DNA of 64,000 nt from a virus (taxonomy: Duplodnaviria; Caudoviricetes): IMG/VR virus record IMGVR_UViG_3300017721_001026, positions 64,001 to 128,000 of that record; one strand, written 5' to 3'. How positions within the stretch are numbered: position 1 is the first letter of the stretch; the number at the start of each line of letters is the position of its first letter. Of this stretch, positions 4,493 through 21,354 are shown in pieces. A model generated the notes under the pieces. It did not search any database, was not told the DNA's origin, and saw only the letters and a list, made by a program, of their open reading frames with translations. The position numbers and the translations under genes are program-made.

Positions 4493-4645
4493 TCATCCTC
4501 CAAACATATCATCAAATAATTGTTGTCCAGAACGTTCATTTTTTTCTGCTTTCTTTGCATATTGCTTCATACGTTCGAGTGCTTCTTCACGTGAGATTGA
4601 CTCGGGAAAGTAATAGTGACGACCTGCTGGATTAGTGTAAAGCAT
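4493..4645 (-). CDS. small hypothetical protein (50 aa)
   Basis: Hand-translated MLYTNPAGRHYYFPESISREEAL... Confidence 0.6.
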   Translation of the reverse strand: MLYTNPAGRHYYFPESISREEALERMKQYAKKAEKNERSGQQLFDDMFGG

Positions 4646-4686
4646 TGGTTTGCGAATAGAAAGGTTTGAAAGTTGTTGCTTAATGT

Positions 4687-4893
4687 TCAGTTTGATGCTG
4701 CCTCCATGTATACATCATAAAATAAATCGAATGCAGGACCATCACCCGCAAAAGAGTTAATCTCTGCCTGATCACATACCCAATCGAATGCCATATCAAG
4801 GTCAGCACCTGTTTCAATCACAAAGGATTGTAAACCACGGATTGCATCAACGAATTTGGAGTTGTTGAGAAGCATTGGATTCGTTCTGTTCAT
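4687..4893 (-). CDS. early hypothetical protein
   Basis: First ORF of a promoter cassette. Confidence 0.7.
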   Translation of the reverse strand: MNRTNPMLLNNSKFVDAIRGLQSFVIETGADLDMAFDWVCDQAEINSFAGDGPAFDLFYDVYMEAASN

Positions 4894-4957
4894 GCTGTTA
4901 GTATGGCAGATTTTGAGGGCAATTGCAAGGCAGAATGGACACCTTGCTCACTGGCAC
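4894..4957 (-). promoter_or_regulatory. early promoter cassette
   Basis: GTGCCAGTG-AGCA-AGGTGTCCA, then TTGCAA-17-CATACT. Confidence 0.75.
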
Positions 4958-4959
4958 AA

Positions 4960-5154
4960 TCAATAATGATACTTACTCCCTGCATAGTTAAAGTCATCCA
5001 TTGGGTCAGATGGGTTCTCTAATGAATAATTAACAGCATTGTCCCAATCACCACGAGCAATGTCATTTAAGACATTAAGAATATCTACCTGTGTTTCTGT
5101 ATGCTCATCCAGAATCTGAATGTATGCATTGAATGTTTCTTGTGTGACTGTCAT
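4960..5154 (-). CDS. hypothetical protein
   Basis: ORF track; AC-rich leader. Confidence 0.65.
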   Translation of the reverse strand: MTVTQETFNAYIQILDEHTETQVDILNVLNDIARGDWDNAVNYSLENPSDPMDDFNYAGSKYHY

Positions 5155-5197
5155 TTTGTGTGAATTAGTGAGTGAATGAGTAAGTGTTACTTAGTGA

Positions 5198-5485
5198 TCA
5201 GAGTTCTGCCATCATTTCATTCATTTCATCAAAGTTGATTGCAGGGTCATTCCATGCAACACCGTCACCAGTTTTCTGGAGAAACTTACCAATTGTGCCA
5301 TCCATCATGCAACGGACAAACTTATCATAAGGTGTCTCATTTGCATCGCAAAATGTTACACATGCCTTTGCAGTATTGTAGAGAAACTCTTCATTACCGA
5401 TCCAAAGTGATGCGTTCCAGGTCTCATAGTTTGCCCAACCGTTGTAAGTTTCGTTTGCGGTCATGGTGGTTTCCTTGATTTCCAT
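5198..5485 (-). CDS. early hypothetical protein (YNGWANYETWNASLW)
   Basis: First ORF of a cassette; alternative start at 5464 after AAGGA. Confidence 0.75.
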   Translation of the reverse strand: MEIKETTMTANETYNGWANYETWNASLWIGNEEFLYNTAKACVTFCDANETPYDKFVRCMMDGTIGKFLQKTGDGVAWNDPAINFDEMNEMMAEL

Positions 5486-5550
5486 ACTGTTAGTATGGCA
5501 GGTTTTGAGGCATTTGGCAACCGATAGTGGACAGTTTGACCAACTGGCAC
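5486..5550 (-). promoter_or_regulatory. early promoter cassette
   Basis: GTGCCAGTT-GGTCA-AACTGTCCAC, then TTGCCA-17-CATACT. Confidence 0.8.
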
Positions 5551-5552
5551 AG

Positions 5553-5753
5553 TCATCCGTGATTTTCCATAAAATCCTTTAGTGTGTAACCTTCTCCAGT
5601 TGATGTTTCTTCTATCAATTCATCCAATGAATAACATTCTAATTTCAAACGATACTCTTCGGGAGTATCATCATCAGGATCAGGATCGTCATGGCAAAGA
5701 TAGTCCCATTCATGAACAAGTGCATCGATGAGTTGTTCTTTAGTGTAAGTCAT
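5553..5753 (-). CDS. hypothetical acidic protein
   Basis: ATGA coupling. Confidence 0.7.
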   Translation of the reverse strand: MTYTKEQLIDALVHEWDYLCHDDPDPDDDTPEEYRLKLECYSLDELIEETSTGEGYTLKDFMENHG

Positions 5754-6019
5754 AGTTTACCACCAACAACGGCAGATCCTACAACTCTAGTGTATAGATG
5801 TAGTGTGCCTTCTTGTTCACACTTAAGATGCCATCTTGTCATAATAGTGACACCATCTTTTGTGGCACCAGTAAGCATAGCACGACCCTGTTTTGTCATT
5901 GTTGAATACAAACCATAACGAGTTTTCCAGACATAGAATACATCATCAACTAATTCTGCATCATCAGGAATACCCATCTCTCGCAGGTTTGCTGTCTCTA
6001 ACATTTCTTCGTGTGTCAT
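5750..6019 (-). CDS. hypothetical protein
   Basis: ATGA coupling. Confidence 0.7.
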   Translation of the reverse strand: MTHEEMLETANLREMGIPDDAELVDDVFYVWKTRYGLYSTMTKQGRAMLTGATKDGVTIMTRWHLKCEQEGTLHLYTRVVGSAVVGGKL

Positions 6020-6303
6020 TTTGTCTCCATTAATTCTTGTTGTGATAACATATATTGCTCTTCTGTTGCTTCTTCTACTGCATCTTGAATTGTCTGATAG
6101 ATGTAATCACAATCACCAACTTGATAGAAAATATTTTCAGCAAGTTTAGAATTGTTCGTTGCAACATATTCTTGCTCACCACCATTATCAGTCAGATAAC
6201 AATCCTCAGCAGTGTAAATCCATGCGGCACAGTATGCATCTTCTCCCTGCCTTTCAATCATTCGTGATACTCGGTCTTGAAGTTGCTTGAGTGTGTAGTT
6301 CAT
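6016..6303 (-). CDS. hypothetical protein
   Basis: ORF track; AC-rich leader. Confidence 0.7.
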   Translation of the reverse strand: MNYTLKQLQDRVSRMIERQGEDAYCAAWIYTAEDCYLTDNGGEQEYVATNNSKLAENIFYQVGDCDYIYQTIQDAVEEATEEQYMLSQQELMETK

Positions 6304-6341
6304 GATTTGAATGATTTAGATGAGTGAGTGTTAGTTAGGAG

Positions 6342-6509
6342 TTAGAATACGTTGGTCCATGAATAATGCTTTGCAGAACTAATCCTGCCATCTTTGAGTA
6401 ATCCATCACAGACACGACAGAATACTTCAAACTTTTCCAATCGTGTCATGTTAGCATCAATTTTCATTGAAGTTTCACCGACGACTTTGAGAACTTGACC
6501 TTTGAGCAT
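6342..6509 (-). CDS. small hypothetical protein (55 aa, ...FCRVCDGLLKDGRIS...)
   Basis: Hand-translated ORF filling a gap. Confidence 0.65.
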   Translation of the reverse strand: MLKGQVLKVVGETSMKIDANMTRLEKFEVFCRVCDGLLKDGRISSAKHYSWTNVF

Positions 6510-6513
6510 GATG

Positions 6514-6741
6514 TTAGTTATTTGTGTTAGTTAATTTAAATTCTTGAGGTACAAATAAGACATCATTTTCACTACCTTCAATCCACTCCCACCATTCTTC
6601 TAACAATGGTTCAGTTCTTTCTTCATTATAGAATTCTCCAACTTTATCTTCTTCCATAATTGTATCAATTCTTTCTTTAGTAATCATTAGCAATTCATTC
6701 ATTTGTGAAGAAAGAGATTTATTTAATTCCATTGATGTCAA
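6514..6741 (-). CDS. hypothetical protein
   Basis: ORF track. Confidence 0.6.
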   Translation of the reverse strand: MTSMELNKSLSSQMNELLMITKERIDTIMEEDKVGEFYNEERTEPLLEEWWEWIEGSENDVLFVPQEFKLTNTNN

Positions 6742-6914
6742 ATAGCATAGGTTTGATTGATTGCATCAGTCTTAAACTTTCTGCATAGTTTAAACAGCAG
6801 TTTTAAATCATCTGCAATCACATAACGGAACGAAGATGATTCAATGATAAACTTATCATCCTCCAACCATACTTGTGGGAGTTGTTTTTTGTAGATTGGG
6901 AAGTCAGTTGGCAT
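6738..6914 (-). CDS. small hypothetical protein (58 aa, MPTDFPIYKKQLP...)
   Basis: Hand-translated ORF filling a gap. Confidence 0.6.
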   Translation of the reverse strand: MPTDFPIYKKQLPQVWLEDDKFIIESSSFRYVIADDLKLLFKLCRKFKTDAINQTYAI

Positions 6915-6969
6915 GATGAAAAGATTTAGTAAAGAATGTGAAGCGATTAGTGTGAGTTAATCGCTTCAA

Positions 6970-7224
6970 TCACCAACGAGTTTGAATCAGTGCAGAGTTG
7001 AAAAGTTGTGGTTCTGTGTGAAGATCAGTCACTTCATAGTTGTAACCATAAACACGATTGTCAACCTCTTTTTCAAACATACACTTATTGATATAAGACT
7101 TAGATTGCATGTCATTAGCAAACGTAACTGTCTTATACATTAAACGCTCACTGATACTTCCATCAGCATATTTGACGGGATAGAAATCAACAACCATGTT
7201 ACCGTGCTGTGCTGTGAGTTGCAT
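6970..7224 (-). CDS. early hypothetical protein
   Basis: First ORF of a cassette, with AAAGGA RBS. Confidence 0.75.
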   Translation of the reverse strand: MQLTAQHGNMVVDFYPVKYADGSISERLMYKTVTFANDMQSKSYINKCMFEKEVDNRVYGYNYEVTDLHTEPQLFNSALIQTRW

Positions 7225-7234
7225 GAGGTTTGTT

Positions 7235-7305
7235 CCTTTGACTCTTTAATAATACATGATTTTGGTGCCCTGTGTTGGTTTTGTGGACACCTTACCGACT
7301 GGCAC
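7235..7305 (-). promoter_or_regulatory. early promoter cassette
   Basis: GTGCCAGTC-GGTA-AGGTGTCCAC ... TGTATTATTAAAGAGTCAAAGGA. Confidence 0.75.
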
Positions 7306-7951
7306 ACCCAACTAAGTAACCCATTGCAAAACAATCTAGACTCTTTTGTGCCATATATGCCTTACGTTTTAGGCAACTAATTGCAAGTTTTTCCTGATCA
7401 TCTTTGCGTTTCTGCTTACACTCTTCATCAATAACATTTTGAATTTCATCAATGATATTCTGAAACTTTTCTTTTTCAGTACCATTAACCAGAGTTTGTG
7501 CTTTCTTCAGTTTAATCTGAATGATCTTGCGGTTTGCATAATCATCATCCAAACCACTGTTAATCTCAAACTTAGCACAATCTACAGCACTCAACAACTC
7601 ACTGATGGAGAGTTTTGTCGTCTCTACTTGATCATAACAGACTTCAATCTTGTTGAAATAGTTGATCATCTCGGGGAGAACTTTCTCCTCAAAATAATCA
7701 TTACTGAACTCAAACCACTCTCCACTAGTCTGGAACTCTTTGTAGAGTTTGTGAAAATAACCCTCATGCATATAAGCATCTTTTCCTGCCTCAAATGTGC
7801 GGATCAGATGAACTGGAAGAGGGTTGCCAGTTTGAATATCTTTGATTCTCCTTTTAGGATTGTCACTGACACCAATTTTGATGTTTACCTTATCATAAAT
7901 GCCTCGGATTTCGGCAAACATGACATAAACGTGGAGAGTAGTGGTTTTCAT
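7292..7951 (-). CDS. T5orf172/MUG113-type GIY-YIG domain protein
   Basis: VYVM..KIGVSDNPKRRIKDIQTGNP..E..FH..GEWF. Confidence 0.75.
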   Translation of the reverse strand: MKTTTLHVYVMFAEIRGIYDKVNIKIGVSDNPKRRIKDIQTGNPLPVHLIRTFEAGKDAYMHEGYFHKLYKEFQTSGEWFEFSNDYFEEKVLPEMINYFNKIEVCYDQVETTKLSISELLSAVDCAKFEINSGLDDDYANRKIIQIKLKKAQTLVNGTEKEKFQNIIDEIQNVIDEECKQKRKDDQEKLAISCLKRKAYMAQKSLDCFAMGYLVGCASR

Positions 7952-13110: not shown

Positions 13111-13763
13111 TAGTTTTTTCTTCCTGTGTAGATTTTCTTTTCATTATCCCATTCAAAATGGTCAACCATTTCAACATCATCGTCACTTAAGTATAAACCC
13201 CATCCAGTTGCAATATATTTACTGCAAGAATATACGGGATTTCCACGATGAGTATGAGTGTAGAATGCTGGCCAAATTAACATCGTACCTGCCTTTGGTT
13301 GTACTCTGAGACCTTGCCAAAGAAACTCAGTTTCACCTTCACCTTCAGGAATGTCATTCAAATATAACATCCATGCAACACATCTGTCAACGACTCCTAG
13401 ATCATTTACCTCACAATGCCAATCATGAAATCCACCTCTAGGTGAAGTCTTTTGTATTTTTACCTCATCAAAATAGACATCAATATAATCAGAAACCCAA
13501 TACTTTTTACGGTATTGTTCCCAACAATGATCAACAACTTTTAGGACAAGATCTGCACAAGGATTGCCTGATTCCAAGTACCATTGTTCATCATGACGAG
13601 CAAGATAACCTCTCTCACTTTCATCTGAACCATATCCTGCTTTTATTTTACAATCAGAATCGTCGGGATGTTTATAGTTAGATTCAAAGTATTCAATAAC
13701 ATTGTCACATGTAGATTTATCTAATGAATTTAGATAAACACCAATAAAATCACTATCCTTCAT
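13110..13763 (-). CDS. 2OG-Fe(II) oxygenase
   Basis: WHCE ... MLYLND ... GETEF ... IWPAFYTHTHRGNP ... KYIATGW. Confidence 0.85.
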   Translation of the reverse strand: MKDSDFIGVYLNSLDKSTCDNVIEYFESNYKHPDDSDCKIKAGYGSDESERGYLARHDEQWYLESGNPCADLVLKVVDHCWEQYRKKYWVSDYIDVYFDEVKIQKTSPRGGFHDWHCEVNDLGVVDRCVAWMLYLNDIPEGEGETEFLWQGLRVQPKAGTMLIWPAFYTHTHRGNPVYSCSKYIATGWGLYLSDDDVEMVDHFEWDNEKKIYTGRKN

Positions 13764-15121
13764 ACAATCCAGGTTATGATAGAATATCTAGTTCCTTCAG
13801 TTACAGGTAAAATCTCATGTGGGTACATAAAATTAGATGGGAAAACTAATACATCACCAGCATTGAGTTTATACACTAATTCACGGTTGAATAGTGCAAC
13901 TTCACCACCTTCATAACCATCATTCATTGACATAATGACAGTCAATGCTCTAGGTTGGTCTTTAAATGAATCAGTATGCTGAATATAAAAGTCACCTTCT
14001 TCATACTTTAGTAGTTCATATCCACTATCTTCTTGAATCTCCAATTCAAATTCAGGATAACTTTCCTGATATTCTTCAATGATACCTTTTACAACATTAA
14101 AGAGATAATTATCAATTTCTCTCCTACCCTCTTGATTATTTTCCTCAATAACTGCTTGATCTGAAATTGGAATAAACTCACATCTTCTTGCATCTGGATC
14201 ATGCCCAGCACCAGTTAATGTACTCTCCCAATAGTTAGTTGGAGCATATTCTTCCAAAAGTTTATCGCAAAAATCTGGATCAATAAACTCTTCTTTGTGC
14301 CAGACAAAATGCTCCAAACTAAAACGACTTAATTCCTTTGTTTTAGTTTGTATTTCTGGTGTATTCTTAGGTTTAAGGAACTTTTCATATTTACTATTTG
14401 CTATAACAACGTCATCAAAATTGATATATTGTTCTGTTTCATCATCCTGTTCAATAATATCTAATGAGGATGACTGTTGATCTCTATATTTTTTAGGGAG
14501 AATTGTTTTTGTGGATACATGGTCAAATTTGTTTTTCATTTCATCATACTCCTTTTGTAGTGCTTCATGATCTTCAATGTCTTCTGTGATTAGTCTATCA
14601 AAATATGTGCAACCATACATTCCTCTACTTCTCACATAGTGTAAGAAGATTTGTGCATAATAGTCACCTTCAAATCTACCTCTCCAGTGTGGAGAAACAC
14701 AACCTAAGTATAACACAGCATCACCAGGATTCAAAGTGATGCATTTTTTTACACTTTCTGGTGTCTCAATCCAGATTGCCCAAGGTTTATCACCACCAAG
14801 ATGTACTGTCATTGATATTTCACAAGCAGGACGATCTGTGTGCCTCTTAAGAACACTGTCGTTGCGATATATTCTGGAGTAAGTATATGTTGGTAGAACA
14901 GTTTCACCGATAAGTTCACTAACTGTGCTAGTTTTATTGGTGAGTAATTCTATAGCAGGATGAAAGTTAAAGCATGATGAAGAGTTTGGTGCCTGTTCAT
15001 CACCTTCAAACTTAAATTGTGCGTCTGTTACGATAAACTCTGTTTCTAATCTTTTAGCATAATCTAAATCAATAAAACCAGGAACAACAATGTAGTTGTT
15101 TTTCAATAATTCAAGTTTCAT
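13760..15121 (-). CDS. tandem two-domain 2OG-Fe(II) oxygenase
   Basis: Domain 1: RHTDRPACEIS..HWR. Domain 2: QHTD..GGEV..FPSNFMYPHEI..RYS. Confidence 0.85.
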   Translation of the reverse strand: MKLELLKNNYIVVPGFIDLDYAKRLETEFIVTDAQFKFEGDEQAPNSSSCFNFHPAIELLTNKTSTVSELIGETVLPTYTYSRIYRNDSVLKRHTDRPACEISMTVHLGGDKPWAIWIETPESVKKCITLNPGDAVLYLGCVSPHWRGRFEGDYYAQIFLHYVRSRGMYGCTYFDRLITEDIEDHEALQKEYDEMKNKFDHVSTKTILPKKYRDQQSSSLDIIEQDDETEQYINFDDVVIANSKYEKFLKPKNTPEIQTKTKELSRFSLEHFVWHKEEFIDPDFCDKLLEEYAPTNYWESTLTGAGHDPDARRCEFIPISDQAVIEENNQEGRREIDNYLFNVVKGIIEEYQESYPEFELEIQEDSGYELLKYEEGDFYIQHTDSFKDQPRALTVIMSMNDGYEGGEVALFNRELVYKLNAGDVLVFPSNFMYPHEILPVTEGTRYSIITWIV

Positions 15122-15127
15122 ATGTCA

Positions 15128-16474
15128 TTACTTATCGTTTTTATCTAGAACTTCTTTTAATGCAGCAAACCATTTAACTGCCTTATCTAGAGGCATTCCA
15201 TTACCATCGTCTCTCTCATCATCTGTAAGAGTAGTGTATAGTTTTTCTGGATCAATTTCATCCATGAGTGACAAAATGTCATCAACACTATATTCTTGAC
15301 CACTCTCAATTTCTTGTCTCTCTATACTTTCTTTAGCAAGTTTAGATAGTTGACTTGGATCAGTGTTTTCTGCCTTATGTGATTCAAGAAGTTTTGCTCT
15401 TTGCACTTCTCTATACTCTTTCTCTGCCCTATCAAATTCTCTCTCTAATGCATCATCAAGTTCATCATATGTCTGTTCAATATCCATTTTCTTAAGAACT
15501 TCTTCATGAGATCTCATGATAATATCCATCTCATGATCAACTTCCTGTTGGAATTTTTTCTGTTCCAACTCATGATCAAGTTTCATTTTTTCTCTCTCAC
15601 GCACAACTTCTTCCATTGTAAATTGTGCATCACCCCATGCAGTTTCAAGTCCTTGCTTTTGAAGTTCAAGTTCCATTCTAGAAATTTCAATTTGTTCTAG
15701 TTCAAGTTCACGAACTTTATCATCATTTGCTCTCTTAAGTTCTTTTTCTTGCTCATCTTCAAGAATGTTCTTTTCGAGAAGTTCTGTTTCTCTTTCCATC
15801 TTATCACGTTCCATCTGAAGCAGTTCTTGATACTGCTTTCTTTCCTCAATAAATTCTTCCTTTTCTTTTTCAAAACTATGATAAAGTTCATCATACTTTT
15901 TAGAAAGTTCTAAAGACTTTTTCTGAAAGAATTCATCTGCTTTTTGTTGTTCAAGTGCTGCAACTTCTCTTTCTCTTGCTGCTTTTTCTCTCTCAAGTTC
16001 CATCAGAGTGGTTTGCCTATCATAGACACTTTTCTGTTCTTCTTTAGATTTTAGATCGTAAAGTTTTTCTTTCTCACTACGAAGTTCTTCATTTTGCTTT
16101 TGAAGATCATTAATGATGACAAGTTGTGCTTCTTTCTCAAGTTTATCAATGTTCAATTCTTCAATCTGCTTAGAAAGATTTTCCTCTTCTTCTAATGCCG
16201 CAGCAAGTTCTCTCTGCTCATAGATTGACAAGAATGTATTAAAATAGTCTAGATATGGTTGAACAATAGTATCAAATTCATCTTCACTAAAAATTTTATT
16301 TGGTACAGGATCTTCACCAATGACATCTTCATATTCTAATTCACCTCTGCCATCTCTCCACTGAATTGCATGGACAGTTTCATCATCAAAGTCCCAAGGT
16401 GCATTATCCTCAAGATCAACAGTCTTACCATCTACAATAATTTTTTTATCTTCTGGGATGATGGAAATTTTCAT
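15128..16474 (-). CDS. fibre-associated HAIQW-domain protein with a long acidic coiled coil (putative chaperone)
   Basis: ~85-aa N-terminal domain (IIPEDKKIIVDG..VHAIQW) plus ~300 aa of E/K/Q/L-rich helix; hand count 129 D+E vs 69 K+R. Confidence 0.55.
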   Translation of the reverse strand: MKISIIPEDKKIIVDGKTVDLEDNAPWDFDDETVHAIQWRDGRGELEYEDVIGEDPVPNKIFSEDEFDTIVQPYLDYFNTFLSIYEQRELAAALEEEENLSKQIEELNIDKLEKEAQLVIINDLQKQNEELRSEKEKLYDLKSKEEQKSVYDRQTTLMELEREKAAREREVAALEQQKADEFFQKKSLELSKKYDELYHSFEKEKEEFIEERKQYQELLQMERDKMERETELLEKNILEDEQEKELKRANDDKVRELELEQIEISRMELELQKQGLETAWGDAQFTMEEVVREREKMKLDHELEQKKFQQEVDHEMDIIMRSHEEVLKKMDIEQTYDELDDALEREFDRAEKEYREVQRAKLLESHKAENTDPSQLSKLAKESIERQEIESGQEYSVDDILSLMDEIDPEKLYTTLTDDERDDGNGMPLDKAVKWFAALKEVLDKNDK

Positions 16475-16857
16475 TGTTGTTCCTCGTCAGATTCGGGTAG
16501 TAAATTTTCTTCTTCATTATCTATACCTTCGATTTGTTCAATGTATTCAGAAACATTGACACCCTGTGCTTCACACATATCAAGATACATATTGCCAACG
16601 GCATCTAACATGTTCTGATTAGTTTCATGTGCCTTTGTCATTTCATTACGGAATGATTCAACAGCAGAACTTGTAGATCTTTGTTGTTGACTATTTTCAA
16701 TCATCAACATTGGCATCCATTGAACTGCACAAGACCAATGATCTACTGGATTTCCAGTGTTAGGATCTTGCCCAGTGATATGTGTATACCATGCACACTT
16801 ATGTTCGACACAATCTTTTTTAATAAGCGGACACCACTTGCCAGTTGATTTAGTCAT
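16471..16857 (-). CDS. Cys-rich fibre-associated protein
   Basis: CPLIKKDCVEHKCAWY...WSC, then ...AVESFRNEM helix. Confidence 0.65.
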   Translation of the reverse strand: MTKSTGKWCPLIKKDCVEHKCAWYTHITGQDPNTGNPVDHWSCAVQWMPMLMIENSQQQRSTSSAVESFRNEMTKAHETNQNMLDAVGNMYLDMCEAQGVNVSEYIEQIEGIDNEEENLLPESDEEQQ

Positions 16858-16893: not shown

Positions 16894-18156
16894 TCAATCC
16901 AAACTGCAAAGAATCACATCAATATATTGAACTCTCAATGGTGATAATCCTGCTGTAAATGATATTGGAGATCCAGTAAATGGATGAACGTGTGCTTGAC
17001 CACCACCAGTTGATGATGTTGCAGGTGCTTGAGTATTATTTGCCCTGATAGTACCACCAGGACTCAAAGTTCTCAATGGGAATCTTATACTCGTAACTTG
17101 AGGATATCTTTGAGGTGTACGATATGCTCTTGGTTGTCTATAGGATGCAGGATTTCTTTGAGGAACTGTTATTCTAAACGGAATATCCACTCGGAAACCA
17201 TTTCTCTGCCTGAATGAATATCTCACTCTAAATGTTCTCGGTTGCCTCTGTCTAAAATCTCTTCTCTGCCTACCATTTCTGGGTTGTCTAAAGTTACGAG
17301 GTTGACGGAAAGATCTTCTCTGTCTTCCAGATACAGGTCTTCGAGTTTGCCTTCTTTGCCTATAACTTGTATTTCTAGGTTGTCTTCTTACTGCTCTTCT
17401 TGGGAATCTATCGTTTCTTCTACGTCTCCCTCCTCTTCTTCTTGGTTCTCTATCATTCCTTCTTACACCAACACGGAAAGAGTTTGGAATTGGTCTTCTA
17501 CTTCTTCCACCACCCTGACGGAAACTAAATGGTGCTCTAGATCTTAATGGAACACGGAAAGGAACAGGAACTCTGAAAGTAAATGGATTTCTAGAACGTG
17601 TTTGATATCTAACTCTAAAGTTTCTTGGTTGTCTCTGTCTAAGTGGAACTCTCTGCCTTTGTGGTTGTCTATAGTTAAGAGGTTGTCTTACATTTGTTGG
17701 TTGTCTAAAATCGACACTAACTCTAGTGTCTAGAACAATTCTAGTTGATGCTCTAATATTATATCCACGTGGTTGTCTATTATTTTGTCTAAATGGTGAA
17801 GAACCTTCGGAAGATCTATATGAATTAGGATTACTTCCAGTGTTATGTGTATGTGCAGGAAGTTGATCTGTTGTTAATGTTGTTGGTCCAGTGCTTCCTG
17901 AAAGAGTTGAAGAAACAGTGCTGTCTGCACCAGAATCATTAAATAATGTAGTGAAACTTACAGATCCAGCAGATGATCCACCAGTACCATCAACAACTCT
18001 AAGTGATTTATCGTTTTCTGATATATCTTTAGTCCAACCAGTTGGTGCTGCCGCCTGGTAAAATACCATCGTAGAGGATTGAGGAATAATCCCGTAAAAA
18101 CTATTTAACTGACTGCCACCACCAAACTGAATTCCGTCTGCCTTTAAAATTGACAT
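16894..18156 (-). CDS. short tail-fibre/collar-type protein with an Arg-rich hexapeptide-repeat insert
   Basis: FYQAAAPTGW collar motif, LTTDQLPAHTH ... GGGQAHVH, YIDVILC; ~75 Arg in residues 121-371. Confidence 0.7.
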   Translation of the reverse strand: MSILKADGIQFGGGSQLNSFYGIIPQSSTMVFYQAAAPTGWTKDISENDKSLRVVDGTGGSSAGSVSFTTLFNDSGADSTVSSTLSGSTGPTTLTTDQLPAHTHNTGSNPNSYRSSEGSSPFRQNNRQPRGYNIRASTRIVLDTRVSVDFRQPTNVRQPLNYRQPQRQRVPLRQRQPRNFRVRYQTRSRNPFTFRVPVPFRVPLRSRAPFSFRQGGGRSRRPIPNSFRVGVRRNDREPRRRGGRRRRNDRFPRRAVRRQPRNTSYRQRRQTRRPVSGRQRRSFRQPRNFRQPRNGRQRRDFRQRQPRTFRVRYSFRQRNGFRVDIPFRITVPQRNPASYRQPRAYRTPQRYPQVTSIRFPLRTLSPGGTIRANNTQAPATSSTGGGQAHVHPFTGSPISFTAGLSPLRVQYIDVILCSLD

Positions 18157-18166
18157 ATCTTATACC

Positions 18167-18703
18167 TCAACTAAAACGACAGAGAATGACATCAATATAT
18201 TGAACTCTCAGATCAATACTTCCAGAATATGGTGATGCTCCACCAGAAAATGGGTGAGTATGTGATGTTCCACCACCAGTTGGTGATGTTGCAGGTGCAT
18301 CAGAATTTACAGCACGTCCACCAATACCAGGAGATCCAGGACTTACGTTAACTTGAGAACCCGCATTGTGTGTATGTCCAGGAATTTGCTGAGTGGTCAA
18401 TGTTGTTCCTCCAACAGTACCAACAGCAGTTACAGTTCCACTAATTGGACGAGTTGATGTGGGAAATATGGTAGAGAATGGTTGTCCACCAGGACCAGCA
18501 GTTCCACCAGAACCAAATCCTCCACCAGAACCAGATACAACTCTAAGTGCTTTATTATTATGAGTGGTTACTTGTGCCCATCCACTGGGTGCTGATGGTT
18601 GATAAAACACTGCTACACTATTCTGAGGAATAATGCCATACTTAGAGTTTAAAACAGTATTATCAAGTCCAAATTGTATACCACTCGTTTGCAGAATAGA
18701 CAT
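18167..18703 (-). CDS. short tail-fibre/collar-type protein (paralogue without the insert)
   Basis: FYQPSAPSGW, LTTQQIPGHTH, GGGTSHTH, LRVQYIDVILC. Confidence 0.75.
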   Translation of the reverse strand: MSILQTSGIQFGLDNTVLNSKYGIIPQNSVAVFYQPSAPSGWAQVTTHNNKALRVVSGSGGGFGSGGTAGPGGQPFSTIFPTSTRPISGTVTAVGTVGGTTLTTQQIPGHTHNAGSQVNVSPGSPGIGGRAVNSDAPATSPTGGGTSHTHPFSGGASPYSGSIDLRVQYIDVILCRFS

Positions 18704-18736: not shown

Positions 18737-18744
18737 TATTTATC
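18737..18744 (-). promoter_or_regulatory. T4-type late promoter
   Basis: GATAAATA about 35 nt upstream of the ATG. Confidence 0.6.
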
Positions 18745-19402
18745 CAATATTAAATGCGATAGATATTCTCTCATTGTCACTAAAATGTGGTGTAACATAA
18801 TGCCCAACTGTAGAAGGCATTAAATACAACCTATTTACCTCAGGTTTAATTACCCATTCACAATGATTGGGGACATCGGCAAATGCAGCATTATGATTTG
18901 ATGGATCAGTTCTGAGAATAGTTAAGTTTCCCTCGTTTTCTTCAAGATTATCAGGAATCATTGGATAATAGATTCCAATAACTGAGCAACCAGGATGTGT
19001 ATGAAAGACGTTGTAACCCATTCCTTTGTTGATGTTAATCCACCAACCAATTTGCTCATCACTAACTCTTGACCCAGAACCACAATCTTCTAACATATCA
19101 TTTGTCAGGTCAATAACATTTCTAGCAAGATTTTGGATTGCAGGTGTAACTCCTCTCCGTATTTCACATAATTCAAAAACTTGACTTTGCCACCCATCTG
19201 CAAAGTTAGATTTCCTAACTCCATTCGGATACTTATCTTTTAGTTCAAAACACTCATCAACAATTTCTTGATTATCAAAATCTAATTTATAATCAAAAAA
19301 TGGTGTGGTGAACAATTCAATTCTATCCCTAGTTTCTACTTCTATAGGAACAAAATTATCATCATTTGGTTTTACTTCTGGTCTAAATCTATGCTCTGTC
19401 AT
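18740..19402 (-). CDS. 2OG-Fe(II) oxygenase (TIGR02466-like)
   Basis: WININ..YNVFHTHPG ... PS..GHYV ... RISIAFN. Confidence 0.8.
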   Translation of the reverse strand: MTEHRFRPEVKPNDDNFVPIEVETRDRIELFTTPFFDYKLDFDNQEIVDECFELKDKYPNGVRKSNFADGWQSQVFELCEIRRGVTPAIQNLARNVIDLTNDMLEDCGSGSRVSDEQIGWWININKGMGYNVFHTHPGCSVIGIYYPMIPDNLEENEGNLTILRTDPSNHNAAFADVPNHCEWVIKPEVNRLYLMPSTVGHYVTPHFSDNERISIAFNIG

Positions 19403-20133
19403 TATTCTCTTGCCCTAGGATTCCTGAAGAAAAATACTTGATTAATTCTAAACTCAGCATCACTATAGTGATCCGCAAAGTAATTTTTACCCGTAAGATC
19501 CATACTGTGATAATAGTAAGATCCCTCAAACATAACAAATCGATTGAACTTTGATCGAAATCTAACTACAATTTCCCACAAATCTTTAGGTGTCCATGGA
19601 ATAGCATGTTCATCTCTCACACCACCATTCTCATCTAAGGGTAAAATTTTTGGATTGTCAGTAACAGTTGGTTTATATAAATTTGTTCCAATCTCTTCTT
19701 TCTTTGAAAGATAGCAGATACCATTATATCCTCCATCGTGATGTGGCCACCAAAAATGAGTGTCATGTGGGTTTTCTTTAACTTTCGAGAATCTTGTGAA
19801 ATTAGTTACAATCTCATCATCTAGAGGTTGTTGATTACAAATATTGCTAAGTTTATTATATAATGAACAGATACCAGGATGTTTCATCATATGTCTGCGA
19901 TCTTCAAAGTATTTGGTATTAAGAGTTCCTCTACCTAAATCCCATTCTGGTCCAACTTTCCATAGTGGTGGTTCAATCGAAAGTAAGTAACTATAAACAT
20001 CATCAGGTCTTTTATAAAAGTTATCCATCCAATAAAGATTAGATACTCTATTACCATCAACAAACTCAATAATATTCATATTTGAGAAATCATTAGTCTC
20101 AAATAGTGTTGGATCTCTTCTCAAATCTCTCAT
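19402..20133 (-). CDS. 2OG-Fe(II) oxygenase-like protein (DUF6445-like)
   Basis: DNFYKRPDDV, PHHD..ICYL..GTNLY, FNRFVMF..YHS, RINQVFF. Confidence 0.7.
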   Translation of the reverse strand: MRDLRRDPTLFETNDFSNMNIIEFVDGNRVSNLYWMDNFYKRPDDVYSYLLSIEPPLWKVGPEWDLGRGTLNTKYFEDRRHMMKHPGICSLYNKLSNICNQQPLDDEIVTNFTRFSKVKENPHDTHFWWPHHDGGYNGICYLSKKEEIGTNLYKPTVTDNPKILPLDENGGVRDEHAIPWTPKDLWEIVVRFRSKFNRFVMFEGSYYYHSMDLTGKNYFADHYSDAEFRINQVFFFRNPRARE

Positions 20134-20693
20134 AAAAATATTTCTCCTATCTTTTCATCGTCTAAACAAAAACCAAACACCCATAGTATTCTAGGATTAT
20201 CACCTTTGGTTACAGTAACTTCATGGTGAATTTCAGATACTTGATATATTAAAAGATCTGTAGGATCTAAGTCAGTATATTCTACACCACCAATGATAGT
20301 ATGTCCACCCCTATCGGCATGTTGTGTAATGGCATTAAAATGAACTGTTTTCGTATCTGGATAATATGTAGGATCAATATGTTCTTCTATTCTTCCACCA
20401 GAATATCCAATACCATTTACAATCCCATGACTATATGATGGAGGACTTTTGTATTCATACAAGTCAAAGTAATTTATAATTCTTTGTCTGGCAATGTATG
20501 CGGCATCAGGATAATCTATACTTGGAGCAACTGATTCATTTGGAAACCGAGTTGTAAACCTTGTTCCAGAATTATCAGGATCCATGTTAGCATCCTCAAA
20601 GAACTCTTGACAGCAGTTATCAATAGTCCATTGATTTAGTTTTCTTACATCATCTTGAAATAGAAAGTTTCTGAGAACAAATGATTTAGACAT
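20130..20693 (-). CDS. 2OG-Fe(II) oxygenase
   Basis: EHIDP ... GG ... SEIHHEVT ... RILWVFGF; start moved to MSKSF. Confidence 0.75.
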   Translation of the reverse strand: MSKSFVLRNFLFQDDVRKLNQWTIDNCCQEFFEDANMDPDNSGTRFTTRFPNESVAPSIDYPDAAYIARQRIINYFDLYEYKSPPSYSHGIVNGIGYSGGRIEEHIDPTYYPDTKTVHFNAITQHADRGGHTIIGGVEYTDLDPTDLLIYQVSEIHHEVTVTKGDNPRILWVFGFCLDDEKIGEIFL

Positions 20694-21354
20694 CGGTTGT
20701 GCAGTATTCACTTGAATTTTGACTTTCTTCTTCAAATGAAAAGATTTCATACTCCGTATTAACATTAAATGATAAAATTATTCTATCTACATCACTTTGA
20801 TTTGGTGCAGTATAGTGGAGAACATATGATGGAAAAAATATCATTGATCCCTCTCTAATTCCAGGTGGAATAATATTACAGGTTTCAACATCTGCCAGAT
20901 TAGGATTCAAAAAGATAGTTGGTGTATGATGTTTTGGATCAAATTGAACAAAACAAACTGCACTGAATCCTTGAGACCCATGGTTATGAACTTGATGAAA
21001 CTTAGTGGTTGATGCTTTCTCAAACCATGAAGTACAAACTTCTACACCACATTCAAATGTATCAGCAAGTGCTTCTAACTCATCCCTAAAAAGATCCATG
21101 ATTAGTTCATCATAGGTCTCTCCATGGTCATGATTAAAATGATAATCAGTCTCTACATCTAAACTGGTTTCACTTCCTGTGGCAACTTTAAATTTAGATT
21201 TATCAGATTTTCTTCTCTCATACATTTCAAGAAGTTCTTTTTTCTTTTCCTCCCAATTTTCTATCTTAAGATGTAGAAGTGGAGTAGAGAACATAGGAAT
21301 TAAATATTCTTCATTTCCATTTGGTACATCACCATAAATTGCAAATTCAGTCAT
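20686..21354 (-). CDS. 2OG-Fe(II) oxygenase (TIGR02466-like)
   Basis: HQVHNHG ... FFPSYVLHYT ... RIILSFN. Confidence 0.8.
   Translation of the reverse strand: MTEFAIYGDVPNGNEEYLIPMFSTPLLHLKIENWEEKKKELLEMYERRKSDKSKFKVATGSETSLDVETDYHFNHDHGETYDELIMDLFRDELEALADTFECGVEVCTSWFEKASTTKFHQVHNHGSQGFSAVCFVQFDPKHHTPTIFLNPNLADVETCNIIPPGIREGSMIFFPSYVLHYTAPNQSDVDRIILSFNVNTEYEIFSFEEESQNSSEYCTTDV

What the first reader, a model, noticed from the sequence alone, without database searches (positions are those of the whole stretch)
17044..17796. Lys-free, ~30% Arg hexapeptide-repeat insert with mirror layout between two HxH motifs
Seen (hand count): residues 121-371 contain ~75 Arg, no Lys and 7 acidic residues (net about +68). 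Arg recurs every 6 residues at 139-187 and 189-213, and again at 266-302 and 304-346 ((F/Y)RQPxN-type units). These runs flank an apex, RRNDR-EP-RRRGGRR-RRNDR, whose GG (242-243) lies near the midpoint of H104 and H389. The paralogue has only ~23 residues at this position. Established: HxH motifs coordinate metal in trimeric fibre needles (T4 gp37/gp12), where each chain runs out and back. Inference: a ~45-nm beta-hairpin needle (about 135 residues per arm at ~3.3 A) with a poly-Arg tip. The absence of Lys in an AT-rich genome implies selection for guanidinium, for example to bind polyanionic or sulfated cell surfaces or LPS, or to penetrate membranes.
Basis: partly seen in the sequence, partly recalled or inferred. 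Interest (0 to 1): 0.85.

Follow-up and report, generated by a model that had tools for sequence, protein, structure and literature searches.

The report
Arginine-rich hairpin on a cyanophage fibre tip
A marine cyanophage tail-fibre tip protein carries a conserved, ~245-residue lysine-free arginine-rich stretch that most likely folds back on itself as a ~40-nm beta-hairpin, and its charge is mirrored across relatives by a neighbouring acidic helical protein, pointing to an undescribed two-part host-contact device.

Summary
Residues 121-371 of the 420-aa ORF (window 16894..18156, minus strand) have 75 Arg, 0 Lys and 7 acidic residues, with Arg every sixth residue in the stated runs. It is not an artefact. 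The isolate S-SCSM1 keeps it (76 of 78 Arg; dN/dS 0.32), and about 90 metagenomic protein clusters down to ~31% identity carry it.

The flanks belong to the gp12/Pvc13-type fibre-tip family (PDB 9qgo, E=6e-9), and both HxH motifs are invariant. The insert sits at the distal loop of the 178-aa paralogue.

Three results support an out-and-back beta-hairpin:
- Mirror symmetry about G242-G243 (34/120 identities versus 23.9±1.7 in shuffles).
- Covariation concentrated on antidiagonals i+j=485-491.
- AF2 strands 139-197 and 290-348 at pLDDT 70-85.

One face is Arg/Pro/Asn and the other is aromatic/aliphatic/Gln.

New here: the downstream acidic protein (448 aa, net -60) is long only where the insert exists. 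Its net charge tracks the insert's (r=-0.88, slope -1.0; phylogenetic contrasts r=-0.75). A double 2OG oxygenase tracks more weakly.

Trimer state, metal binding, virion presence and target are untested. S-SCSM1 proteomics flagged the short paralogue only.

The parts
16894..18156 (-). CDS of the Arg-insert fibre-tip protein (420 aa, P0001)
   Evidence: ORF list and translation. The orthologue SSCSM1_245 in S-SCSM1 is 421 aa and is annotated 'short tail fiber protein'. About 90 homologous clusters carry the insert.
17854..18156 (-). N-terminal conserved domain (residues 1-101), shared with the short paralogue and with the C-terminal receptor-binding region of Pvc13
   Evidence: BLASTP against the paralogue gives 47% identity over residues 1-118. 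The profile hit to 9qgo_A covers residues 243-354 of that chain.
17845..17853 (-). First HxH motif (H102-T-H104), preceded by TTLTTDQLPA
   Evidence: Invariant in 79 homologues. It aligns with HYH of 9qgo_A. By eye it matches the SYHKH segment of T4 gp12.
17434..17796 (-). Ascending arm of the hairpin (residues 121-241). Odd positions are R/P/N (R-x-P-x-N-x) and even positions are hydrophobic or Gln.
   Evidence: Counts. AF2 strand 139-197 at pLDDT 70-85. Covariation with the descending arm.
17395..17463 (-). Arg-dense apex (residues 232-254) with the G242-G243 turn. It is the most variable part in length and sequence.
   Evidence: Mirror centre at 242.5. Indels among homologues cluster here. 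dN/dS is 0.54 here against 0.27 in the arms. AF2 pLDDT is below 50.
17059..17427 (-). Descending arm of the hairpin (residues 244-366). Even positions are R/P/(N,D,T) and odd positions are hydrophobic or Gln.
   Evidence: AF2 strand 290-348. Antidiagonal covariation at i+j=485-491.
16984..16992 (-). Second HxH motif (H389-V-H391) within GGGQAHVHPF
   Evidence: Invariant in 79 homologues. It aligns with GGGQGHNHP of 9qgo_A.
16897..16938 (-). C-terminal strand LRVQYIDVILCSLD, the family signature shared with many other phage fibre tips
   Evidence: Y411, D413, I415 and C417 are invariant. The same C-terminus occurs in unrelated-length fibre proteins P0087-P0124.
18167..18703 (-). Short paralogue (178 aa, P0002) with 35 residues between its HxH motifs
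   Evidence: The S-SCSM1 orthologue SSCSM1_244 is flagged 'virion protein'.
16471..16857 (-). Conserved small Cys-bearing protein (128 aa; Cys at 9, 16, 21, 43 and 95), present in every cassette
   Evidence: Found in 22/22 long and 22/22 short loci. No significant Pfam hit and no PHROGs family.
15128..16474 (-). Acidic protein (448 aa, net -60). It has an N-domain (1-73), a Pro-free highly charged presumably helical region (74-372, window 15359-16255), and a C-terminal part.
   Evidence: Composition. It is long only in loci with the Arg insert, and its charge tracks the insert's.
13760..15121 (-). Double-domain 2OG-Fe(II) oxygenase (453 aa). It is part of the core cassette, and its net charge also tracks the insert's.
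   Evidence: PF13640 hit with E=8e-16. Present in 19/22 long and 20/22 short loci. Phylogenetic contrasts give r=-0.65, p=0.009.
18740..21354 (-). Four upstream oxygenase-like genes, found only in the clade with the insert
   Evidence: PF13759 and DUF6445 hits. Homologues occur in 15-19 of 22 long loci and 0-1 of 22 short loci. The short-class locus L060 has talC and a radical-SAM gene upstream instead.

Best explanation
The gene encodes a gp12/Pvc13-type phage fibre-tip protein. Its distal loop, between two invariant HxH motifs, has been expanded into a ~245-residue amphipathic beta-hairpin that is mirror-symmetric about a GG turn. Each arm has about 122 residues, which is about 40 nm if extended.

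One face of the two-stranded ribbon carries Arg, Pro and Asn in an R-x-P-x-N-x pattern, mirrored on the return strand. The other face carries Phe, Tyr, Val, Ile and Gln.

By homology the protein is a trimer. The three ribbons would then bury their aromatic/Gln faces and expose about 225 guanidinium groups. This step is inferred.

The hairpin does not work alone. The acidic, Pro-free, presumably helical protein encoded two genes downstream arose in its long form in the same lineage. Its length is comparable (about 300 residues, about 44 nm) and its net charge follows the insert's roughly one-for-one.

The most likely role of the acidic protein is a charge-matched chaperone or removable sheath. 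It would keep the polycation folded and away from nucleic acids in the cell. The acidic protein would then be displaced, leaving the Arg face free to bind polyanionic material of the cyanobacterial envelope. This role is also inferred.
For: Shown:
- Composition and period-6 and period-2 Arg pattern.
- Mirror symmetry centred on G242-G243.
- 27% of the top 150 covarying column pairs lie on i+j=483-491, against 3.3% background, with z up to 11. Odd sums dominate, as expected for same-face pairs in an antiparallel ribbon, and the pairs run from the base to near the apex.
- AF2 with a 79-sequence alignment gives strands 139-197 and 290-348 at pLDDT 70-85.
- Length variation is confined to the apex.
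- Purifying selection: dN/dS 0.32, with 76/78 Arg conserved against S-SCSM1.
- Fibre-tip homology: 9qgo_A E=6e-9 and 9nxk_A E=2e-5, with Pvc13 described as an intertwined trimer whose C-terminus is homologous to phage short-tail-fibre host-binding domains (PMC12546770). The S-SCSM1 paper reports HHpred 99.2% to T4 gp12.
- Partner link: in 22 of 22 non-redundant loci with the insert the acidic protein is 423-500 aa. In 22 of 22 without it the protein is 101-316 aa, mostly 138-178.
- Within the insert clade, insert net charge against acidic-protein net charge gives r=-0.88 with slope -1.0. Independent contrasts give r=-0.75, p=6e-5. The partial correlation after removing GC is -0.84, and three other neighbouring proteins show no correlation.
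- The Pro-free span is 41-50 nm against hairpin arms of 39-56 nm.
- The acidic orthologue ORF247 has 26 predicted detectable tryptic peptides but is not flagged in the S-SCSM1 virion proteome. This fits a chaperone rather than a structural partner.
Against: - The Arg-insert orthologue ORF245 is also not flagged as a virion protein, whereas the short paralogue ORF244, with a similar number of usable tryptic peptides (5 against 6), is. Presence on the virion is therefore unproven.
- The long state arose once on the tree, so the presence/absence association is a single evolutionary event. Only the charge tracking has replication.
- Acidic homologues of intermediate length (214-316 aa, net -54 to -64) occur next to short fibres with no basic ORF nearby. 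Acidic extension therefore does not strictly require an Arg partner.
- The acidic region has no clear heptad signal (a/d occupancy 0.51 against 0.48 in shuffles), so 'coiled coil' is not established.
- The apex (213-276) has AF2 pLDDT below 50.
- No structural analogue was found.
- The binding target is pure inference.
Confidence: 0.55

Rival explanations
1. Heteromeric structural fibre. The acidic helices and the Arg hairpins co-assemble permanently, for example helices lying in the grooves of the ribbons or forming the core. The result would be a roughly neutral ~40-45 nm appendage on the virion, and the acidic protein would be a structural subunit rather than a chaperone.
For: Near one-for-one charge tracking and comparable lengths. 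Conserved synteny at 33-44% identity. As an analogy only, T4 has gene 12 followed by wac, a 487-aa fibrous protein.
Against: The acidic orthologue ORF247 should give about 26 detectable tryptic peptides but is not among the flagged virion proteins of S-SCSM1. The acidic N-domain family consists mostly of 70-220-aa proteins of unknown role. The heptad signal is weak.
Confidence: 0.17
2. The insert is an intrinsically disordered polycationic loop of the protamine or RGG type, with no fixed hairpin. It would act as a flexible tether binding any polyanion.
For: Low-complexity composition (R, Q, P, N). AF2 mean pLDDT is only 58, with the apex below 50. No structural match.
Against: Strict period-2 amphipathic alternation on both arms. 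Mirror symmetry. Position-specific antidiagonal covariation. Length is conserved at 284 residues across many clusters, with indels only at the apex. dN/dS is 0.27 in the arms. pLDDT is 70-85 over two 59-residue strands.
Confidence: 0.08
3. The Arg protein is not a virion component. It would act inside the infected cell as a fibre-tip paralogue recruited as a scaffold, a nucleic-acid or polyphosphate binder, or a substrate or platform for the oxygenase array. The acidic protein would be its regulator.
For: It is not flagged in the S-SCSM1 virion proteome, although the short paralogue is. It is surrounded by 2OG oxygenases rather than by baseplate genes. The double oxygenase's charge tracks the insert's.
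Against: It keeps every invariant residue of the tip fold, including both HxH motifs and the C-terminal strand, under purifying selection equal to that on the insert. Only 53 of 421 residues fall in usable tryptic peptides, so non-detection is weak evidence. The cassette directly follows the late structural module in S-SCSM1.
Confidence: 0.12
4. Assembly or annotation artefact: a frameshifted or chimeric low-complexity stretch.
For: None found.
Against: The same architecture occurs in a sequenced isolate, in about 90 protein clusters from ENA, JGI, Tara and Logan, and in 22 non-redundant IMG/VR and ENA loci with conserved synteny. The other frames are closed. Logan contigs are identical at 200-290x.
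Confidence: 0.01

Closest known systems
T4 gp12 short-tail-fibre receptor-binding domain and its homologue in Photorhabdus Pvc13 (PDB 9QGO); Pseudomonas phage Pa223 tail fibre (PDB 9NXK)
   Same: Profile-level homology of the N-domain, the TLTxxQ(L/I)PxHxH segment, the GGGxxHxHP segment and the C-terminal strand. HHpred 99.2% to gp12 is reported for the S-SCSM1 orthologue. The insert sits where these proteins carry their distal, host-facing part.
   Different: Those proteins have about 40-70 residues between or after the HxH sites, forming a compact head. Here 245 extra residues form a long Arg-rich hairpin. No known member has such an insert or a charge-matched acidic neighbour. There is no long shaft N-terminal to the tip domain.
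T4 gp37 long-tail-fibre needle domain (from memory: PDB 2XGF, chains run out and back, Fe ions held by HxH motifs)
   Same: Out-and-back topology, with HxH motifs on both the outgoing and the returning segment at the base.
   Different: The gp37 needle is stapled along its length by several HxH-metal sites and ends in a small head domain. This hairpin has no His at all between residues 105 and 388, is several times longer, and is polycationic.
Fibre assembly helpers encoded next to fibre genes (T4 gp57A, gp38, fibritin/wac; Tfa proteins; the Pam3 fibre chaperone, PMC9608196 seen)
   Same: A small or fibrous helper gene lies immediately downstream of the fibre gene. The acidic protein is apparently absent from virions.
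   Different: No sequence or profile similarity was found. None of these helpers is known to scale its charge and length with its client.
Acidic chaperones of polycationic proteins (histone chaperones, prothymosin-alpha/H1-type pairs), as a functional analogy from general knowledge
   Same: Charge neutralisation of a strongly basic partner by a strongly acidic one.
   Different: Those pairs are largely disordered and nuclear. Here the cation is a patterned beta-hairpin on a viral fibre scaffold and the anion a long Pro-free helix-like segment.

Membership tests
gp12/Pvc13-type phage fibre-tip (receptor-binding) domain | Significant profile similarity to solved members over the N-domain and both HxH segments | tested here: met
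   A4 (short paralogues) against PDB gives 9qgo_A E=6.2e-9 over 154 profile positions and 9nxk_A E=2.1e-5. A2 (insert-bearing) against 9qgo_A gives E=6.5e-6 in two stretches.
gp12/Pvc13-type phage fibre-tip (receptor-binding) domain | Conserved HxH motif(s) for a six-His metal site on the three-fold axis | tested here: met
   H102, H104, H389 and H391 are invariant in 79 sequences. The motif is present, but metal binding itself was not tested.
gp12/Pvc13-type phage fibre-tip (receptor-binding) domain | Intertwined homotrimer | not testable with these tools
   Monomer AF2 models of the tip domains are low-confidence. Inferred only from homology to the Pvc13 trimer.
gp12/Pvc13-type phage fibre-tip (receptor-binding) domain | Virion component | tested here: inconclusive
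   The S-SCSM1 record flags ORF244 (short paralogue) as a virion protein but not ORF245. ORF245 yields only 6 usable tryptic peptides covering 53 aa.
gp37-type metal-stapled needle | Repeated HxH motifs along the out-and-back strands | tested here: not met
   There is no His between residues 105 and 388. Only the two basal motifs exist.
gp37-type metal-stapled needle | Chain runs out to a tip and back antiparallel | tested here: met
   Mirror symmetry, antidiagonal covariation and AF2 strands.
Intrinsically disordered Arg-rich region (protamine/RGG-like) | No persistent secondary-structure periodicity or long-range covariation; free length variation | tested here: not met
   Period-2 and period-6 pattern, long-range covariation, and fixed 284-residue length in many clusters.
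Canonical coiled coil (for the acidic neighbour) | Heptad a/d hydrophobic occupancy well above composition-matched shuffles | tested here: not met
   0.51 against 0.48±0.02. The region is Pro-free and 47% charged, so it is better described as a charged helix-like segment.
Known fibre chaperone families (Pfam/PHROGs/PDB) for the acidic and Cys proteins | Profile match | tested here: inconclusive
   No significant Pfam, PHROGs or PDB hit for the acidic protein, its N-domain profile or its relatives. The Cys protein has only sub-threshold Pfam hits. The N-domain family has 2007 representatives of unknown function.

The most novel reading that the evidence does not exclude
A three-part viral host-contact device with no described precedent. 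The parts are (1) a ~40-nm polyarginine beta-needle grown from a fibre tip, (2) a dedicated acidic helical sheath or chaperone whose charge is tuned residue-for-residue to the needle, and (3) a dedicated acidic double 2OG-Fe(II) oxygenase that hydroxylates the exposed R-x-P-x-N face. Arg, Pro and Asn are exactly the residue types known to be hydroxylated by this enzyme superfamily. This would give cyanophage 2OG oxygenases a structural, collagen-like role rather than a metabolic one.
Probability: 0.15. Interest if true: 0.9.

Novelty: new variant of a known kind. Interest (0 to 1): 0.72.

Why it matters
**Host recognition.** How marine T4-like cyanophages recognise their hosts is poorly understood, and their gp12-like proteins are barely annotated. 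This work defines a widespread but almost uncultured clade. Only S-SCSM1 among 50,697 phage records carries the gene, while dozens of ocean metagenome clusters do. In this clade the fibre tip carries a very long, patterned polycationic hairpin.

**Protein structure.** A 120-residue-per-arm beta-hairpin with an all-Arg, Lys-free face would be an unusual architecture. It would also be a natural test case for guanidinium-specific binding in high-salt, sulfate-rich seawater.

**Testable partnership.** The near one-for-one charge tracking with a neighbouring acidic protein, and more weakly with a 2OG oxygenase, gives a concrete hypothesis about partnership. It also offers a first possible structural substrate for the many cyanophage 2OG oxygenases. 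Their proposed roles so far are metabolic or in DNA repair (PMC3037559).

Tried and rejected
- **Homotrimer prediction:** residues 95-400 in three copies plus 2 Fe gave 'no answer' (score 0.00). This is not evidence either way.
- **Foldseek:** the AF2 model against PDB gave no match.
- **VIA-align wide search:** the best hit was Z=2.1 to 3gw6_A, which is not meaningful.
- **AF2 of the short paralogue:** mean pLDDT 55, too poor for a fold search.
- **hhalign against T4 gp12:** the short-paralogue profile against the single gp12 sequence gave no significant alignment. The single-sequence target gives low power. The gp12 link rests on PDB hits to gp12-like domains and on the published HHpred result.
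- **Pfam and PHROGs:** nothing for the two fibre proteins. For the acidic and Cys proteins, PHROGs gave nothing and Pfam gave only sub-threshold hits on the Cys protein.
- **ESM Atlas:** a feature search with the acidic N-domain gave no usable hit.
- **PDB profile search with the acidic N-domain:** nothing significant.
- **RNA evidence:** no RNA holder is listed among public runs.
- **DNA tandem repeats in the insert:** none of note, so recent slippage expansion is rejected.
- **T4 late promoter:** the exact TATAAATA is absent near the genes. A GATAAATA lies about 30 nt upstream of the short paralogue, but its significance was not tested.
- **GC-driven compositional drift as the cause of the charge correlation:** rejected. 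The partial correlation is -0.84 and three control proteins show none.
- **Literature:** a search for 'arginine-rich' + 'tail fiber' + 'cyanophage' returned no paper.
Full report
**What is there**

The finding lies inside a 420-aa ORF on the minus strand (window 16894..18156). It is immediately preceded by a 178-aa paralogue (18167..18703). Downstream come a 128-aa Cys-bearing protein (16471..16857), a 448-aa acidic protein (15128..16474) and a 453-aa double-domain 2OG-Fe(II) oxygenase (13760..15121). Four more oxygenase-like genes lie upstream.

The window is 82% identical in DNA to Synechococcus phage S-SCSM1, a T4-like cyanomyovirus of the Kyanoviridae. S-SCSM1 has the same gene order, ORFs 240-249. 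Public-run look-up indicates that the window comes from a marine metagenome.

**Check of the observation**

- A script count gives residues 121-371 as 75 Arg, 0 Lys, 6 Asp, 1 Glu and no His. The four His of the protein are H102, H104, H389 and H391.
Arg autocorrelation peaks at lags 6, 12 and 18. 56 of the 75 Arg use the codon AGA.
- The other five reading frames of the insert are closed (4-31 stops). There is no DNA-level tandem repeat, so this is an old repeat maintained at the protein level.
- Against the S-SCSM1 orthologue, 76 of 78 Arg are conserved. dN/dS is 0.32 in the insert and 0.35 in the flanks, with arms at 0.27 and the apex at 0.54.
- Logan contigs from two runs cover the gene with no differences at 200-290x. 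Those runs may be the source sample.
- One detail of the finding is wrong. BLASTP places the 246-residue insert (119-364) at a single point (SPG 124-126) of the paralogue, which has 35 residues between its HxH motifs rather than ~23 at the position.

**A family, not a singleton**

A search of 5.8 billion proteins returned 170 hits. About 90 clusters, 411-527 aa and down to ~31% identity, align over the full length and keep an Arg-rich segment between the two HxH motifs.

Across them the inter-HxH segment is 275-379 residues and 13-30% Arg. It has 0-1 Lys in most clusters, with a maximum of 6 in this set. The dominant Arg periodicity is 2.0, with 3 and 6 also seen. Lys avoidance and Arg on alternate residues are therefore family traits.

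Among 50,697 deposited phage genomes only S-SCSM1 has such a gene. The clade is common in ocean metagenomes but almost uncultured.

**What the scaffold is**

Pfam and PHROGs give nothing. Profiles built here hit solved fibre tips:
- The short-paralogue alignment A4 matches chain 9qgo_A at E=6e-9 over the N-domain, the TLT..Q.P.HxH segment and the GGGxxHxHP segment. It matches 9nxk_A at E=2e-5.
- The insert-bearing alignment matches 9qgo_A at E=6.5e-6 in two stretches that flank the insert.

9QGO is the Pvc13 fibre of a Photorhabdus contractile injection system. It is described as three intertwined chains whose C-terminal region is homologous to the host-binding domains of phage short tail fibres (PMC12546770). 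9NXK is a tail fibre of Pseudomonas phage Pa223.

The S-SCSM1 authors obtained HHpred 99.2% to T4 gp12 for ORF245, and gp10/gp37/gp12 hits for ORF244 (PMC9602691 supplement).

H102, H104, H389, H391, Y411, D413, I415 and C417 are invariant in 79 sequences. The protein is a member of the gp12-type tip family by sequence. Trimer state and metal binding are inferred from that membership, not tested.

**Is the insert a hairpin?**

Four independent results say yes.

1. Mirror symmetry. Folding the sequence on itself, the best antidiagonal is i+j=485, centred between G242 and G243. It gives 34 identical pairs of 120, against 23.9±1.7 in shuffles that keep odd and even positions apart. None of 500 shuffles reaches it. 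The ascending R-x-P-x-N-x unit is mirrored by x-(D/T/N)-x-P-x-R on the way back.

2. Covariation in the 79-sequence alignment (Neff about 44). 27% of the 150 strongest APC-corrected mutual-information pairs lie on i+j=483-491, against 3.3% of all pairs. The antidiagonals 485, 489, 491 and 487 have z-scores of 11.3, 9.9, 8.6 and 8.4, while even sums score about half that. This is what same-face neighbours in an antiparallel ribbon would give. The pairs run from the base (107-385, 121-366) through the arms (139-346, 173-312) to near the apex (214-275, 233-261).

3. AF2. With that alignment AF2 predicts two 59-residue strands, 139-197 and 290-348, at pLDDT 70-85. The apex 213-276 is below 50.

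4. Length variation. Among homologues it is concentrated at the apex, as expected if both arms must stay in register.

In both arms the residues alternate. Odd positions ascending and even positions descending are Arg/Pro/Asn. The others are Phe, Tyr, Val, Ile, Leu and Gln (read). With an odd i+j the two Arg/Pro/Asn faces fall on the same side of the ribbon.

Pro at every sixth residue on that face fits the non-hydrogen-bonded pair positions of a two-stranded ribbon. This last point is inference from beta-sheet geometry.

With about 122 residues per arm the fully extended length is about 40 nm.

**What the hairpin is not**

It has no His, so it cannot be a gp37-style needle stapled by metal along its length. 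Only its base is flanked by HxH motifs. Structure searches gave no analogue.

**The neighbour that changes the picture**

Following a lead in earlier scan notes, I compared 83 related loci. A core cassette is conserved in all: one or two short HxH tip genes, the Cys protein, a protein with the acidic protein's N-domain, and the double oxygenase.

In all 22 non-redundant loci with an Arg insert the acidic protein is 423-500 aa. In all 22 without, it is 101-316 aa, mostly 138-178.

On a tree of the Cys protein the long state is one clade with 99% support. Presence/absence is therefore a single event and proves little by itself.

Within the clade, however, the insert's net charge (+37 to +83) and the acidic protein's net charge (-27 to -72) correlate:
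- Pearson r=-0.88, slope -1.0.
- Independent contrasts on the Cys tree give r=-0.75, p=6e-5, slope -0.72.
- After removing locus GC the partial correlation is -0.84.
- Three other neighbouring proteins show none (r=-0.03, -0.30, +0.17).

The double oxygenase also tracks (raw r=-0.78; contrasts r=-0.65, p=0.009, n=14). The Cys protein tracks only in the raw data.

The Pro-free span of the acidic protein is 274-338 residues, or 41-50 nm as a helix. The hairpin arms are 39-56 nm.

The region is 47% charged and lacks a heptad signal. It should be called a charged helix-like segment, not a proven coiled coil. Its N-domain belongs to a large family (2007 representatives) of mostly 70-220-aa proteins with no known function.

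**Limits and counter-evidence**

- The S-SCSM1 GenBank record marks virion proteins found by tryptic LC-MS/MS. ORF244, the short paralogue, is marked. ORF245, 246, 247 and 248 are not.
- ORF245 would give only 6 peptides of 7-30 residues covering 53 aa, but ORF244 gives only 5 and was found. ORF247 would give 26. The acidic protein is probably not a major virion component. Whether the Arg protein is on the virion stays open.
- Acidic homologues of 214-316 aa (net -54 to -64) occur beside short fibres with no basic ORF nearby. Acidic extension is therefore not exclusive to the Arg partner.
- The tree used for contrasts rests on a protein of about 130 aa.

**Most likely mechanism**

Shown:
- A gp12-type tip scaffold.
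- A conserved, selected, mirror-symmetric amphipathic hairpin at its distal loop.
- A lineage-specific, charge-tracking acidic neighbour.

Inferred:
- Three hairpins bury their aromatic/Gln faces around the three-fold axis and display about 225 Arg.
- The two His triads clamp the base.
- In the cytoplasm the acidic protein shields the polycation from RNA, DNA and polyphosphate and helps it fold.
- On the virion or at adsorption the acidic protein is displaced, leaving the Arg face free to bind anionic envelope polymers.
- The exclusive use of Arg would suit bidentate binding of sulfate, phosphate or carboxylate, and guanidinium stacking on a beta face, in high-salt seawater.
- The acidic double oxygenase may act on the exposed R/P/N face.

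**Comparison, novelty and score**

By sequence it is a member of the gp12/Pvc13 tip family. By topology it resembles the gp37 needle but fails that family's defining repeated HxH feature. The insert, its Lys-free patterned face and the charge-matched neighbour have no described counterpart in the literature searched. The S-SCSM1 paper has no occurrence of 'arginine' in its main text.

I classify it as a new variant of a known kind.

Noticed in passing
window 13760-15121 (-) and homologues in L002-L082: The double-domain 2OG-Fe(II) oxygenase is part of the conserved fibre cassette in both short and long classes (19/22 and 20/22 loci). Its net charge ranges from -11 to -46 and follows the Arg insert's charge (contrasts r=-0.65, p=0.009). 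This hints that fibre-cassette proteins, not metabolites or DNA, may be its substrates.
   Followed up: partly
window 18740-21354 (-): Four consecutive oxygenase-like genes (PF13759, DUF6445) upstream of the fibre pair have homologues in 15-19 of 22 insert-bearing loci and in 0-1 of 22 short-class loci. The short-class locus L060 has talC and a radical-SAM gene there instead.
   Followed up: partly
window 16471-16857 (-): A 128-aa protein with Cys at 9, 16, 21, 43 and 95 (homologue of P-SSM2_029 according to the S-SCSM1 supplement) lies between fibre and acidic genes in every locus examined (44/44). It has no significant Pfam or PHROGs match. Its start overlaps the end of... rather, its stop overlaps the acidic gene's start by 4 nt.
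   Followed up: partly
L061:3642-4592, L077:8328-9104, L064:4108-4752: Acidic-protein homologues of intermediate length (316, 258 and 214 aa; net -64, -54 and -56) stand next to short fibre paralogues, with no strongly basic ORF on the same strand of the locus. Their partner, if any, is unknown.
   Followed up: partly
proteins P0077, P0085, P0086, P0105 (577-593 aa): Distant relatives sharing the C-terminal YxDVIxC strand carry 11-12 HxH motifs arranged in three repeated blocks of about 190 residues. They look like triple tandem tip modules or a gp37-like multi-metal needle.
   Followed up: no
L083 (T4 NC_000866) 4550-7593: In T4, gene 12 is directly followed by wac (fibritin, 487 aa). The cyanophage cassette has a gp12-like tip gene followed, after one small gene, by a 448-aa elongated acidic protein. 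This is a positional parallel only, and no sequence similarity was tested.
   Followed up: no
window 18738-18745 (-): GATAAATA lies about 30 nt upstream of the short paralogue's ATG, resembling the T4-type late promoter core. The exact TATAAATA occurs only twice in the whole window, fewer than in shuffles.
   Followed up: partly
S-SCSM1 versus window, residues 237 and 251 of P0001: The two direct-repeat copies RRNDR(E/F)P at the apex have E then F in the window and F then E in S-SCSM1. This is a reciprocal swap across the GG turn.
   Followed up: no
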